Below, piece after piece: positions 33,801 to 36,800 of a stretch of DNA of 64,000 nt. This DNA is from Escherichia coli. GTDB lineage: Bacteria > Pseudomonadota > Gammaproteobacteria > Enterobacterales > Enterobacteriaceae. Where the stretch lies: NCBI RefSeq assembly GCF_013315695.1, contig NZ_CP054353.1; one strand, given 5' to 3'. Positions within the stretch are counted from its first letter, which is position 1, and every line of letters starts with the position of its first letter. Position numbers: made by a program.

Positions 33801-36800
33801 ACTCGTACATTATTTGCCCCCCATGTTGCCGGGCAGGCGAACTTTACGTTCAACCAGCGTCATTACCAGCATGATAACCGCGTTAATCAACACATACGCA
33901 AGCGTAATGGCGGTAAACGACTCCCAGGCATGAGCTGAGTAATCGAGCAATTTACCCGCCTGCGCCGCCATATCTACCAGACCGATAGTCGAGGCGATGG
34001 CGGAGTTTTTCACCAGGTTCATCATCTCGGAGGTCATCGGCGGGACGATAACGCGATAAGCATTAGGCAGCAGTACATAGCGGTAAGCCTGCGGTAGCGT
34101 CAGACCCATTGCCAGCGCGGCATTCTTTTGCCCACGCGGCAACGACTGAATCGCGGCGCGTACCTGTTCGCAAACACGGGCGGCGGTAAACAGCCCCAGG
34201 CAGAGCATGGATGAAAGGAAAAACTGAATATTGGGATCCAGCTCGGCCTTAAACCACATGCCGATTTTCTCTGGCAGCAGCTCCGGGATCACCAGATACC
34301 AGGTAAAGAATTGCACAATCAACGGCACGTTGCGGAACAGTTCGACATACAACGTACCCAGACCGGAGAGAAAACGGTTTGGAACGGTACGTAAAATGCC
34401 GAAAAATGAACCGACGAGGAAAGCGATAATCCAGGCGCAGATCGACAAAGCGATCGTCACCTGAAAACCACTCCAGATCCAACCAAGATAGGTGGTGTTG
34501 CCGAACGGGGCTTGTTGTAAAAAAATACCCCAGTTCCAGTCTATAGACATAAATCTACTCCAGAAAAAAGAGGGTAGCAGCGTTAACTGCTACCCTCGAA
34601 GATTGTTACCCAGCGTATTGCGGTTTTCAGGCCCGATGGGGAACGACCATCAGGCGTATAGTCTGTCCGTGCTACGTAACAATCGAGAGGGCTGGAATTT
34701 CCGCCCCTGGTTCTTGTAATTAGTTCAGTGCCTTGTCATTCGGTTCTTTGAACAGTGCTTTCATTTCGTCCGACAGTTCGAAATTCATGTTCAGGTTTTT
34801 CGGCGGAATTGGGTTTTTGAACCATTTATCAAACCATTTTTCCGCTTCACCGGAGGTCTGCACCTGAGCGATAGTGTCATCCATCAGCTTTTTGAACTGC
34901 GGATCGTCTTTACGCAACATGCAACCGTAGGCTTCCTGAGACTGCGGCTTGCCGACGATTTCCCAGTTGTCTGGTTTCTTCGCTTTTGCACGTTCACCAG
35001 CCAGCAGAGCATCATCCATCATAAAGGCAACGGCACGACCGCTTTCCAGGGTACGGAAAGAGTCACCGTGATCTTTGGCGCTGATGATGCGCATGTTCAT
35101 TTTTTGCTCTTCATTCAGTTTGTTGAGCAAAACTTCAGAGGTGGTGCCGGAAGTGACTACGACGGCTTTGTCTTTCAGATCGGCAAAATCTTTAATATCG
35201 CCGCCTTTTTTTGTCAGCAGGCGCGTACCGACCACGAAAATAGTGTCGGAGAAAGCCGCCTGTTTTTGGCGTTCGACGTTGTTGGTGGTAGAACCACATT
35301 CAAAATCGAAAGTGCCGTTTTGCAGCAGCGGAATACGGTTTTGTGAGGTGATCGGAATCAATTTCACCTGCAAGTCCGGTTTGTTGAGTTTCTTTTTCAC
35401 TGCTTCAACAATGGCGTTGGAGTAATCCTGCGAGTAACCCACCACTTTTTGCTGATTGTCGTAATAAGAGAAAGGTACTGAAGATTCACGGTGACCGACG
35501 ACAATCACACCGTTTTTGGCGATTTTGTCCAGCGTACTGCCTGCTGCCGGGGCGGCGTCATCTGCCTGTGTCAGTCCTGCGGAAAGCGCCAGGGCCAGGA
35601 TTGCTGTGGCAGGTTTACGTAATTGCATATCCAACTCCTTTATCTTCTGCGTTAAGAACGCATGGATACCCGTTGTGAGTGTTTGTGTTGTTATCATCTG
35701 CAACTTTATTGTGCAGTGTTGTGTTTGTTAGGTAACATTTAGTTTGGCTAAATGTAAAGATATTGATGTTTTATTGTTTGTTTTTGCGAGATGCGCCGCA
35801 CCATTCCGAAGCAAAATTCTTAAACTGCACCTTTTTGGTGCTACCGCTGATTTGTGGTGGTGCAACCCGGTTGCGTCGCGGCTGATTTCATTGCTTACAC
35901 AGTAAATAAAGCAACTTACATGCCAAAAAATACTTAGGGGTGAATTAATTACGATTGTAATTTTAGGCTGAAAAAGTCATATTTCGGACAGTGTTAACTT
36001 TTCGGTGTGGGACGTTTGCCGGGATGATAACTACACACGGGAAAATGCTTTTTACTAGTCTTTTCAAGGAAGAATCACCTTATGTCTGCATCTTCGGTTA
36101 AGCCGTTAAATGTTCAATTACCCGCAATAACCCTGATCCTTTTTGCGCTCTGTGTTGGGATATTTTGTTACCTCGCACAATGGATGAGTTACGAAGAAGT
36201 CGATCAATCCGCACTCATCCATCTCGGCGCTAACGTTGCTTCTCTCACGTTGTCGGATGAATCCTGGCGCTTATTGAGCAGTGTTTTTCTGCACAGTAGT
36301 TTTTCCCATTTGCTGATGAATATGTTTGCACTCCTGGTGGTGGGGGCAGTGGCGGAGCGGATACTGGGGAAATGGCGACTCCTGATTGTTTGGCTATTCT
36401 CTGGCGTCTTTGGTGGGCTGATCAGCGCCTGTTATGCGTTACGCGAAAGTGAGCAGATAGTCATCAGCGTTGGGGCATCCGGAGCAATTATGGGAATAGC
36501 TGGCGCTGCGATAGCAACACAGCTTGCTTCAGGTGCGGGCACACACCATAAAAACCAGCGGCGAGTATTTCCTCTGTTGGGTATGGTGGCGCTGACACTG
36601 TTGTACGGTGCCCGGCAAACAGGAATAGATAACGCTTGCCACATTGGCGGCCTGATTGCGGGTGGCGCGTTGGGTTGGCTGAGCGCGCGTTTAGTTGGGC
36701 AAAACCGATTCGTTACGGAAGGCGGGATTATTGTTGCGGTCACTCTTCTTCTGACCGGGGCTATCTGGCTTGTGCAGCAGCAGATTGATGAATCAGTTTT

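What the first reader, a model, noticed from the sequence alone, without database searches (positions are those of the whole stretch)
34551..35700. gltI locus carries both known sRNA features: the SroC source region and a C/A-rich GcvB target
The gltI-gltJ spacer (169 bp) and a C/A-rich stretch (AACAACACAAACACUCACAAC) about 50 nt upstream of the gltI start codon match the known post-transcriptional regulatory architecture of this operon. The ORF track extends gltI through this element, so automated annotation would mis-call the start and hide the site.
Basis: established knowledge. Interest (0 to 1): 0.25.

Follow-up and report, generated by a model that had tools for sequence, protein, structure and literature searches.

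The report
Known gltI sRNA sites: SroC, GcvB target
This stretch of an E. coli chromosome carries the textbook RNA-level controls of the glutamate/aspartate transporter operon, namely the SroC small RNA after gltI and the C/A-rich GcvB docking site before it; both are intact and already well described, so the finding is correct but ordinary.

Summary
All genes lie on the minus strand. The gltI stop-to-gltJ start spacer is 34551-34719, exactly 169 bp. Rfam sroC (RF00369) matches 34562-34724 full length at 174.8 bits (threshold 45). This stretch is 100% identical to the annotated sroC of E. coli K-12. Both short GcvB-pairing sites and the terminator are intact. The C/A-rich 21-mer is at 35672-35692, which is -64 to -44 from the gltI ATG at 35628, and it is identical in K-12. 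C/A composition alone is not rarer than chance. Its pairing with the GcvB R1 region is: -38.2 kcal/mol, the best site in the whole 64-kb window, reached by 0 of 500 shuffles. The pairing trough sits at the same position in 80 other Enterobacteriaceae loci.

One sub-claim fails. The mechanical ORF does run through the element (TTG at 35703, 327 aa). Real annotation does not follow it. PGAP and K-12 call the 302-aa ATG form, and the extended forms are absent from a 15-billion-protein collection.

What standard annotation omits is the sRNA and leader features themselves.

Verdict: already known, low interest. This strain lacks the K-12 IS5 insertion, so the conserved sigma-54 promoter motif remains contiguous with gltI.

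The parts
34562..34724 (-). SroC sRNA (163 nt). Its 5' end lies 2 nt before the gltI stop codon and its 3' end is at the terminator U-run.
   Evidence: Rfam RF00369 at 174.8 bits (gathering score 45), model 1-163. 100% identical to K-12 sroC b4763. RNAalifold on 60 sequences finds 34 pairs, 15 with compensatory changes.
34661..34668 (-). SroC BS2, GGACAGAC (SroC nt 57-64). Perfect complement of GcvB nt 156-163.
   Evidence: Exact 8-nt complementarity. GGACAGACT is invariant in 60 Enterobacteriaceae sequences. Two sites of 7 or 8 nt, 14 nt apart in SroC, as described in PMC4474525.
34640..34646 (-). SroC BS1, UCGUUCC (SroC nt 79-85, loop of stem-loop 2). Perfect complement of GcvB nt 13-19.
   Evidence: Exact 7-nt complementarity, 14 nt downstream of BS2. 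CGTTCC is invariant and the first base is T or C in the 60-sequence alignment.
34562..34597 (-). Rho-independent terminator shared by the gltI mRNA and SroC. The 12-bp stem GAGGGUAGCAG/CUGCUACCCUC spans 34570-34597 and is followed by the U-run UUUUUUCU.
   Evidence: Terminator scan and MFE fold. Described as leaky in PMC4474525.
34551..34719 (-). gltI-gltJ spacer, 169 bp. The gltJ Shine-Dalgarno GGAG is at 34558-34561, directly after the SroC 3' end.
34720..35628 (-). gltI coding sequence, 302 aa plus stop, starting at the ATG at 35626-35628. The AAGGAG Shine-Dalgarno is at 35635-35640.
   Evidence: PGAP and K-12 annotation. Pfam SBP_bac_3. The ATG and SD are conserved in 81 loci while the upstream in-frame open stretch varies from 1 to 82 codons. 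The exact protein is in the database and the extended forms are not.
35672..35692 (-). C/A-rich element AACAACACAAACACUCACAAC (-64 to -44). It holds 5 ACA triplets. It is the GcvB R1 target and a translational enhancer.
   Evidence: Identical in K-12. Predicted single-stranded, mean P(unpaired) 0.83-0.86. The core duplex with GcvB nt 63-83 is -21.4 kcal/mol. Literature: PMC3879156, PMC4474525, PMC9299463.
35669..35706 (-). Full predicted GcvB R1 duplex footprint (-78 to -41), pairing with GcvB nt 61-95 over 32 bp.
   Evidence: RNAduplex -38.2 kcal/mol, the best in the 64-kb window, reached by 0 of 500 shuffles. Across 80 loci the energy trough is at the same place, median -27.8 against a coding-sequence background mean of -12.9.
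35648..35662 (-). Small hairpin UGCGUU-CUU-AACGCA between the C/A element and the Shine-Dalgarno.
   Evidence: MFE and partition-function fold. The stem sequence changes in a pair-preserving way among genera, judged by eye.
35698..35716 (-). Hairpin CUGCA...UGCAG just upstream of the C/A element. The TTG at 35701-35703 that starts the mechanical ORF lies in its 3' arm.
   Evidence: Fold and ORF list.
35910..35925 (-). Sigma-54 -24/-12 motif TGGCATGTAAGTTGCT. This is the nitrogen-limitation input to gltI and SroC. It is contiguous with gltI here because the K-12 IS5 insertion is absent.
   Evidence: The motif is present in 81 of 81 loci about 290-300 nt upstream of the ATG. The Salmonella sigma-54 site for gltI is TGGCACGTCTATTGCTTT (PMC3844500). 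The IS5 effect on SroC induction is in PMC9731577. IS5 position in K-12.

Best explanation
This is the standard E. coli gltIJKL locus with its two characterised post-transcriptional elements, both intact.

(1) The gltI leader carries an unstructured C/A-rich element at -64 to -44. It boosts translation. It is also the docking site for the G/U-rich R1 region of the Hfq-dependent sRNA GcvB. When GcvB is abundant (rich medium, glycine), pairing there lowers GltI synthesis and exposes the mRNA to RNase E.

(2) Transcription partly stops at a leaky terminator between gltI and gltJ. RNase E then cuts the gltI mRNA a few nucleotides before its stop codon. This releases the stable 163-nt SroC.

(3) SroC pairs with GcvB through two short sites, BS1 with GcvB nt 13-19 and BS2 with GcvB nt 156-163. 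That pairing triggers RNase E decay of GcvB. The result relieves repression of gltI itself and of the other GcvB targets.

Shown here: sequence identity, the covariance-model match, complementarities, predicted accessibility, conservation and covariation.

Inferred from published Salmonella and E. coli K-12 work: processing, Hfq dependence and the regulatory outcomes.

Because this strain has no IS5 upstream of gltI, the conserved sigma-54 promoter motif remains joined to the operon. SroC should therefore be inducible by nitrogen limitation, as reported for IS5-free E. coli.
For: SroC:
- Rfam sroC at 174.8 bits, full length.
- 201 bp around it are 100% identical to K-12 sroC.
- BS1 and BS2 are exact complements of GcvB nt 13-19 and 156-163 and lie 14 nt apart. 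This matches PMC4474525.
- BS1 and BS2 are invariant in the 60-sequence alignment of window plus 59 loci, and 15 of 34 pairs show compensatory changes.
- Terminator.

GcvB target:
- The C/A element is identical to K-12.
- The R1 duplex is -38.2 kcal/mol, the best in the window, reached by 0 of 500 shuffles.
- The element is predicted single-stranded.
- The duplex-energy trough is at the same leader position in 80 loci.

Partner and population:
- gcvB is present in 5425 of 5426 complete E. coli genomes, at 99% identity or more in 5389.
- The sroC region is present in 5421 of 5426.

Start codon.

Literature:
- PMC4474525: SroC sponge, RNase E, Hfq; the E. coli homologues are functional.
- PMC9299463: RIL-seq, CLASH and MAPS support in E. 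coli.
- PMC3879156: the element lies 45 nt upstream, and a 27-nt deletion abolishes control.
- PMC11347164: the RNase E site lies exactly at the SroC 5' end in K-12.
- PMC9731577: sigma-70 and sigma-54 promoters and the IS5 effect.
Against: - Nothing here measures RNA.
- The transcription start was not mapped in this strain, and the simple sigma-70 consensus scan found no promoter in 34400-36200. That the C/A element is transcribed rests on K-12 and Salmonella literature and on conservation.
- C/A richness alone is not statistically unusual in this window.
- The 5' third of the predicted long duplex (-78 to -68) overlaps a predicted hairpin. The real footprint is probably shorter than 32 bp.
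- In E. coli K-12, compensatory-mutation tests of the 5'UTR pairing were reported as inconclusive (PMC11347164). PMC9299463 lists gltI as 'Conserved' in E. coli and 'Verified' only in Salmonella.
- I used the K-12 GcvB sequence, not the gcvB of this strain.
Confidence: 0.93

Rival explanations
1. The C/A-rich stretch is coding. On this view gltI starts at the TTG at 35703 (or the ATG at 35697), and the element encodes an N-terminal extension (…ITTQTLTT…) of GltI, as the ORF track suggests.
For: The frame is open from 35703 to the ATG at 35628. It is open for 33 codons upstream of the ATG in all.
Against: - Across 81 loci the in-frame open stretch varies from 1 to 82 codons. Indels in the element break the frame, while the ATG and AAGGAG SD are conserved.
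- K-12 curators and PGAP aa.
- The extended 325-aa and 327-aa sequences are absent from a 15-billion-protein collection, while the 302-aa form is present.
- MQLRKPATAILALALSAGLTQA reads as an N-terminal Sec signal peptide (inference from the sequence). An extension of 23-25 residues would bury it.
- No Shine-Dalgarno precedes the TTG, which sits inside a hairpin arm.
Confidence: 0.01
2. The C/A element in E. coli acts mainly as a GcvB-independent translational enhancer or Hfq distal-face (A-R-N repeat) site. On this view GcvB control of gltI and SroC output runs largely through other contacts.
For: - The element is a transferable enhancer (PMC3879156, citing Sharma 2007).
- ACA triplets enhance translation on their own in yifK (PMC3879156), and this element has five.
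- In K-12, compensatory mutations at the 5'UTR site were inconclusive. The GcvB R1 effect on SroC level appeared independent of pairing at the known site (PMC11347164).
Against: - It is the best R1 complement in 64 kb, and the position is conserved in 80 loci.
- GcvB-gltI chimeras and MAPS enrichment are seen in E. coli (PMC9299463).
- Repression through this site was verified in Salmonella, whose core sequence is closely similar (L009).
- The two roles are not exclusive.
Confidence: 0.05
3. The structured spacer is primarily an intra-operon attenuator. It would set the GltI to GltJKL ratio, with the SroC fragment as a stable by-product of no regulatory consequence in this strain.
For: A strong terminator hairpin sits directly before the gltJ Shine-Dalgarno. 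Binding proteins are needed in excess over membrane components (discussion in PMC4474525).
Against: - BS1 and BS2 are invariant among the 60 aligned sequences while the flanking stems change by compensatory substitution. That pattern points to selection on the GcvB contacts, not only on the fold.
- The E. coli SroC-GcvB pair was shown to function (PMC4474525).
- About 70% of GcvB chimeras in stationary phase are with SroC (PMC9299463).
- Attenuation and sponge roles coexist in the published model.
Confidence: 0.01

Closest known systems
SroC sRNA (Rfam RF00369; E. coli K-12 b4763; Salmonella SroC of Miyakoshi et al. 2015, PMC4474525)
   Same: Same locus (gltI 3' end to the gltI-gltJ spacer) and same length (163 nt). 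100% sequence identity to K-12. Same terminator. Same two GcvB contact sites, 14 nt apart.
   Different: Nothing in the sequence differs. The Salmonella numbering of probed G residues is offset by about 3 nt from the K-12 annotation, so the exact 5' end (34724 versus about 34727) is uncertain by a few nucleotides. Expression context differs from K-12 because there is no IS5 upstream of gltI.
GcvB R1 target / C/A-rich translational enhancer in the gltI 5'UTR (Sharma et al. 2007, as summarised in PMC3879156 and PMC4474525)
   Same: Same gene and same distance from the start codon (3' edge at -44; '45 nt upstream' in the literature). C/A-rich, unstructured and complementary to GcvB R1.
   Different: The mapping was done in Salmonella, whose element is shorter (…AUAACAACAUCACAAU…, L009) than the Escherichia version. 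In E. coli the pairing is supported by interactome data but not by a clean compensatory-mutation test (PMC9299463, PMC11347164). The leader allele in this window differs from K-12 at -71 (U for C) and at -97/-96 (AA for GG).
yifK ACA-motif enhancer silenced by GcvB (Yang et al. 2014, PMC3879156)
   Same: A C/A-rich, ACA-containing enhancer upstream of the start codon that doubles as a GcvB R1 site.
   Different: In yifK the site abuts the Shine-Dalgarno. In gltI it lies about 30 nt upstream of the SD, outside the ribosome footprint, and is separated from it by a small hairpin.
Other mRNA 3'-end-derived, RNase E-processed sRNAs (CpxQ, SdhX, GlnZ, NarS) and the GcvB anti-sRNA AgvB
   Same: Processed from the 3' end of a parental mRNA and shares its terminator (class reviewed in PMC9438474). 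AgvB also antagonises GcvB.
   Different: SroC sits between two cistrons of one operon rather than at the operon end. It targets an sRNA rather than mRNAs. Unlike AgvB, it pairs outside the R1 seed and destabilises GcvB (PMC4474525).

Membership tests
SroC (Rfam RF00369) | Covariance-model score at or above the curated gathering threshold, over the full model | tested here: met
   174.8 bits against a threshold of 45, model 1-163 of 163, E = 7.4e-37
SroC (Rfam RF00369) | [quoted passage not shown] | tested here: met
   34562-34724 (-). The gltI stop is at 34720-34722 and the gltJ ATG at 34550. K-12 has the same layout.
SroC (Rfam RF00369) | Rho-independent terminator at the 3' end | tested here: met
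   12-bp G+C-rich stem followed by UUUUUUCU
SroC (Rfam RF00369) | Two short sites complementary to GcvB (SL1 region and R3/SL4 region), 14 nt apart | tested here: met
   UCGUUCC pairs with GcvB 13-19 and GGACAGAC with GcvB 156-163, with a 14-nt spacing. Both are invariant in the 60-sequence alignment.
SroC (Rfam RF00369) | Conserved secondary structure supported by covariation | tested here: met
   RNAalifold on 60 sequences: 34 pairs, 15 with double compensatory changes. The support lies in stem-loop 2 and the long-range stem.
SroC (Rfam RF00369) | Generated by RNase E processing (5' monophosphate), binds Hfq, destabilises GcvB | not testable with these tools
   Taken from PMC4474525 and PMC11347164. 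No RNA data are available for this strain.
GcvB R1 target site (C/A-rich element) of gltI | Extended complementarity to the G/U-rich R1 region of GcvB | tested here: met
   -38.2 kcal/mol, 32 bp, GcvB 61-95 pairing with gltI -78 to -41. Best in the 64-kb window, reached by 0 of 500 shuffles.
GcvB R1 target site (C/A-rich element) of gltI | Position about 45 nt upstream of the gltI start codon, outside the ribosome-binding site | tested here: met
   The element spans -64 to -44. The position is stated in PMC3879156.
GcvB R1 target site (C/A-rich element) of gltI | Accessible (single-stranded) in the leader | tested here: met
   Mean P(unpaired) is 0.83-0.86, against 0.53-0.55 for the whole leader, in three leader lengths. 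This is a prediction only.
GcvB R1 target site (C/A-rich element) of gltI | Lies within the transcribed 5'UTR | tested here: inconclusive
   No transcription start can be read from the sequence, and the sigma-70 scan found nothing. A conserved sigma-54 motif about 297 nt upstream and the K-12 literature placing the site in the 5'UTR (PMC11347164) support it.
GcvB R1 target site (C/A-rich element) of gltI | GcvB- and Hfq-dependent repression in vivo, lost on deletion of the element | not testable with these tools
   Verified in Salmonella and listed as 'Conserved' in E. coli (PMC9299463). The compensatory test in K-12 was inconclusive (PMC11347164).
GcvB R1 target site (C/A-rich element) of gltI | The cognate sRNA gene gcvB is present in the organism | tested here: inconclusive
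   gcvB is not in the window. It is present in 5425 of 5426 complete E. coli genomes, at 99% identity or more in 5389, so its presence here is very likely but was not seen directly.

The most novel reading that the evidence does not exclude
In IS5-free strains such as this one, the sigma-54 promoter would produce a leader of about 271 nt. That leader would carry the mapped GcvB site plus two further C/A-rich stretches (35716-35729 and 35763-35788). In this minority leader allele these pair with GcvB R1 at about -21 to -25 kcal/mol. An NtrC-like palindrome lies inside the same leader, downstream of the promoter. On this reading, the nitrogen-limitation isoform of gltI mRNA would be a multi-site GcvB binder. 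It would either be more strongly repressed or act as a second, R1-directed sponge on top of SroC. It would be driven by an enhancer located downstream of its sigma-54 promoter.
Probability: 0.07. Interest if true: 0.4.

Novelty: already known. Interest (0 to 1): 0.08.

Why it matters
It matters little as a discovery. SroC and the GcvB-gltI site are among the best-studied examples of an mRNA-derived sRNA sponge and of sRNA repression outside the ribosome-binding site.

The check is useful in three ways.
- It confirms that both elements are intact in this lineage.
- It corrects the idea that gene callers mis-start gltI.
- It shows that the real annotation gap is that no sroC, gcvB or leader feature appears in the PGAP-annotated E. 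coli records sampled here.

It also places this strain among the E. coli whose gltI keeps its sigma-54 promoter motif joined to the operon, unlike the K-12 laboratory strain. That is relevant to anyone extrapolating K-12 SroC and GcvB expression data to natural isolates.

Tried and rejected
- C/A composition as a test of significance. It is not significant: 2 regions observed against 1.28 expected. I replaced it with duplex energy against GcvB R1.
- Simple sigma-70 promoter scan of 34400-36200. It found nothing, so the sigma-70 start stays unmapped.
- A sigma-54 promoter in CTGCAC-N7-TTGCAG at 35698-35716. Rejected by eye: the spacing is 2 nt too long for the -24/-12 elements. The sequence instead folds as a leader hairpin.
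- My first sigma-54 regular expression had a length error and returned nothing.
- RNAalifold on a MAFFT alignment of 79 leaders gave no meaningful consensus (-0.3 kcal/mol). The alignment is scrambled by indels. Covariation of the two leader hairpins therefore rests on inspection only.
- The primary paper mapping the duplex, Sharma et al. 2007 (Genes Dev), is not held in the library. I relied on later open papers that summarise it. My recollection that it gives -57 to -45 as the site is from memory and unverified.
- The N-terminally extended GltI was considered and rejected.
- The 75-aa plus-strand ORF 34492-34719, antisense to SroC, was treated as a mechanical artefact. PGAP does not annotate it and I did not pursue it.
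Full report
**What is at the coordinates**

All genes of interest lie on the minus strand.
- gltL is at 32411-33136, gltK at 33136-33810 and gltJ at 33810-34550.
- gltI has its stop at 34720-34722 and an ATG at 35626-35628.
- The string AACAACACAAACACTCACAAC is the reverse complement of 35672-35692. That is -64 to -44 from the A of the ATG.
- The mechanical ORF list does extend gltI upstream to a TTG at 35703 (327 aa), reading through the element in frame.

**Origin of the window**

A 1.7-kb query around the locus matches 5423 of 5426 complete E. coli genomes. Most are at 95-99% identity and 80 at 99% or more. The best hit is 99.9% (isolate AF3, NZ_OZ547117.1). PGAP annotates that genome as rihA-gltL-gltK-gltJ-gltI, then a divergent rhomboid-family gene, then lnt.

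**SroC**

- A scan of the whole window against Rfam finds sroC (RF00369) at 34562-34724 on the minus strand. The score is 174.8 bits against a gathering score of 45, E = 7.4e-37, covering the full model 1-163.
- K-12 MG1655 annotates sroC (b4763) in the same relative position, overlapping the last 5 nt of gltI.
- A 201-bp alignment around it is 100% identical between the window and K-12.
- The RNA folds into the expected stem-loops at -66.3 kcal/mol.
- It ends in a 12-bp terminator stem followed by a U-run.
- The gltJ Shine-Dalgarno follows immediately.
- SroC is thus not strictly "the spacer". It starts 2 nt before the gltI stop codon and ends 11 nt before the gltJ ATG.

**SroC contacts with GcvB**

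Miyakoshi et al. (PMC4474525) showed the following.
- SroC is cut from the gltI mRNA by RNase E.
- Its 5' end lies within the gltI coding sequence.
- Its 3' end comes from a leaky Rho-independent terminator.
- It pairs with GcvB through two sites of 7 or 8 nt, 14 nt apart in SroC. This triggers RNase E decay of GcvB.

I used the K-12 gcvB sequence.
- The only exact complementarities of at least 7 nt that fit this description are GGACAGAC and UCGUUCC.
- GGACAGAC is SroC 57-64 (window 34661-34668) and pairs with GcvB 156-163.
- UCGUUCC is SroC 79-85 (window 34640-34646) and pairs with GcvB 13-19.
- The two are separated by 14 nt.

**Comparative support for SroC**

- One scan of GTDB species genomes with GltI returned 80 Enterobacteriaceae loci.
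- I aligned 60 distinct spacer sequences of 175 bp or less. GGACAGACT and CGTTCC are invariant in them.
- Stem-loop 2 and the long-range stem change by compensation. 15 of 34 predicted pairs show double changes.
- This pattern fits selection on both the fold and the GcvB contacts.
- Within E. coli, the 174-nt region is present in 5421 of 5426 genomes, at 99% identity or more in 5249.

**The C/A-rich element**

- From the ATG to about -100 the window leader matches K-12 apart from one base (U for C at -71) and an AA/GG difference at -97/-96.
- The 21-mer itself is identical.
- Composition alone is not remarkable. Windows with at least 20 of 21 C/A occur twice in the 64 kb, against 1.28 expected from dinucleotide shuffles.
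- Complementarity to GcvB R1 is what sets the site apart.
- RNAduplex pairs GcvB nt 61-95 with gltI -78 to -41 (window 35669-35706). The duplex has 32 bp and an energy of -38.2 kcal/mol.
- No other 310-nt tile on either strand of the window does better than -34.3.
- 0 of 500 dinucleotide shuffles of the leader reach this energy, z = -4.2.
- The 21-nt core alone gives -21.4.
- The element is predicted to be single-stranded. Mean P(unpaired) is 0.83-0.86, against about 0.54 for the leader as a whole. It sits between two small hairpins.
- Part of the long duplex (-78 to -68) overlaps the upstream hairpin, so the true footprint is probably shorter.
- Across 80 other loci, a sliding-window energy profile has its deepest trough at the same place. 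The median is -27.8 kcal/mol, against a gltI coding-sequence background mean of -12.9 and minimum of -24.7.

**What the literature says about the element**

- A 27-nt deletion abolishes GcvB control and lowers translation, and the segment is a transferable enhancer (PMC3879156, summarising Sharma et al. 2007; also PMC4474525 and PMC7534054).
- For E. coli, PMC9299463 lists gltI as an R1 target that is "Conserved" in E. coli and "Verified" in Salmonella. It is backed by RIL-seq, CLASH and MAPS signals.
- PMC11347164 places the GcvB site in the K-12 gltI 5'UTR.
- The same paper reports that compensatory-mutation experiments were inconclusive.
- It also finds that the most prominent RNase E site coincides with the SroC 5' end.

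**The start-codon claim**

The evidence goes the other way.
- K-12 curators and PGAP, in the 99.9%-identical genome, call a 909-nt gene from the ATG.
- The exact 302-aa product is present in a collection of about 15 billion predicted proteins. The 325-aa (ATG 35697) and 327-aa (TTG 35703) forms are not.
- Among 81 loci the ATG and its AAGGAG Shine-Dalgarno are conserved. The in-frame open stretch upstream varies from 1 to 82 codons and is broken by indels.
- The accepted N-terminus, MQLRKPATAILALALSAGLTQA, reads as a Sec signal peptide. This is an inference from the sequence.
- Standard annotation misses something else. No sroC, gcvB or leader feature is listed under the matches in the PGAP-annotated records sampled.

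**Mechanism**

The best-supported account is the published one.
1. GcvB R1 pairs with the unstructured C/A enhancer in the leader, with Hfq, and lowers GltI synthesis.
2. Leaky termination before gltJ and 5'-end-dependent RNase E cleavage release SroC.
3. SroC pairs with GcvB at nt 13-19 and 156-163 and triggers its decay. This de-represses gltI and the rest of the regulon.

Steps shown here are sequence identity, the model match, complementarity, predicted accessibility, conservation and covariation. Processing, Hfq dependence and regulatory outcome are inferred from Salmonella and K-12 experiments.

**Context that differs from K-12**

- K-12 has IS5 inserted at a CTAA 103-104 nt upstream of the ATG. 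The window has none.
- A sigma-54 -24/-12 motif, TGGCATGTAAGTTGCT, lies at 35910-35925. A motif of this kind occurs about 290-300 nt upstream of gltI in all 81 loci.
- It corresponds to the Salmonella sigma-54 binding site reported for gltI (PMC3844500).
- PMC9731577 states that gltIJKL has sigma-70 and sigma-54 promoters. It also states that SroC induction under nitrogen limitation is only marginal in K-12 because of IS5, but is seen in IS5-free O157 and O111.
- By inference, the strain in this window should behave like O157 and O111.

**Verdict**

The finding is a correct recognition of a well-characterised locus. One subsidiary claim is wrong. Novelty: already known. Interest: low.

Noticed in passing
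window 35827-35841 (-) relative to 35910-35925 (-); loci L004-L083: The only NtrC-consensus-like palindrome (GCACCAAAAAGGTGC) lies downstream of the sigma-54 -24/-12 motif, inside the predicted sigma-54 leader. In 67 of 80 Enterobacteriaceae loci a GCACY-N5-RGTGC palindrome lies downstream of the motif start, 84-85 nt downstream in 54 of them. None has one in the 250 nt upstream. An enhancer downstream of its promoter would be an unusual natural arrangement. I did not find it discussed in the papers read.
   Followed up: partly
window 35874-38091; gene 36082-37959 (+): A 625-aa protein with an N-terminal rhomboid domain (Pfam PF01694) and a C-terminal beta-propeller region is encoded divergently between gltI and lnt. 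The segment is present in 3238 of 5426 complete E. coli genomes and absent from K-12 and O157:H7. It is more divergent (90-99% identity) than the flanking core.
   Followed up: partly
window 35716-35729 and 35763-35788 (-): Two further C/A-rich stretches cluster in the gltI upstream region. Three of the eight minus-strand windows with at least 19 of 21 C/A in the 64 kb lie within 120 bp here. They pair with GcvB R1 at -21 to -25 kcal/mol. The proximal one is stronger in this allele (AACAAACACAAC) than in K-12 (AACAGGCACAAC). Only 250 of 5423 matching records carry this 132-nt leader at 99% identity or more.
   Followed up: partly
window 35735-35755: A perfect 8-bp inverted repeat, ACATTTAG-N5-CTAAATGT, lies about 107-127 nt upstream of the gltI ATG. 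The CTAAATGTTAACAAACA part is conserved across genera. It could be a transcription-factor site or part of the sigma-70 promoter region. Its function is not determined.
   Followed up: no
loci L015, L023, L043 (Citrobacter); L038, L044, L051, L054, L076 and others: In several genera the gltI-gltJ spacer is 280-340 bp. An ERIC-like repeat (…GTGAATCCCCGGGAGCTTACAT…) is inserted inside the SroC region. It lies either between the gltI stop and stem-loop 1 or in the distal part of the long-range stem. BS1, BS2 and the terminator are kept. These species may make longer or differently processed SroC variants.
   Followed up: no
K-12 locus L001 4852-6046 versus window about 35731: K-12 MG1655 carries IS5 (insH3) at a CTAA target 103-104 nt upstream of gltI, and the window does not. 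About 196 of 5422 genomes cover less than 80% of the 132-nt leader query, which may reflect such a split.
   Followed up: partly
window 12134-12582 (+): Rfam cspA thermoregulator model (RF01766) matches at 136.1 bits against a threshold of 78. This is probably the mRNA of a cspA paralogue. From memory, cspE lies in this chromosomal neighbourhood of K-12, but I did not check this.
   Followed up: no
window 45254-45954 (-): A cluster of seven tRNA genes within 700 bp. From memory this matches the K-12 gln/met/leu tRNA operon near this locus. Anticodons were not checked.
   Followed up: no
locus L051 (CACSKA010000002.1): A record titled 'Chryseobacterium sp. 18061' carries an Enterobacteriaceae-type gltI-sroC locus at 90% protein identity. 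This is probably a mislabelled or contaminated assembly.
   Followed up: no
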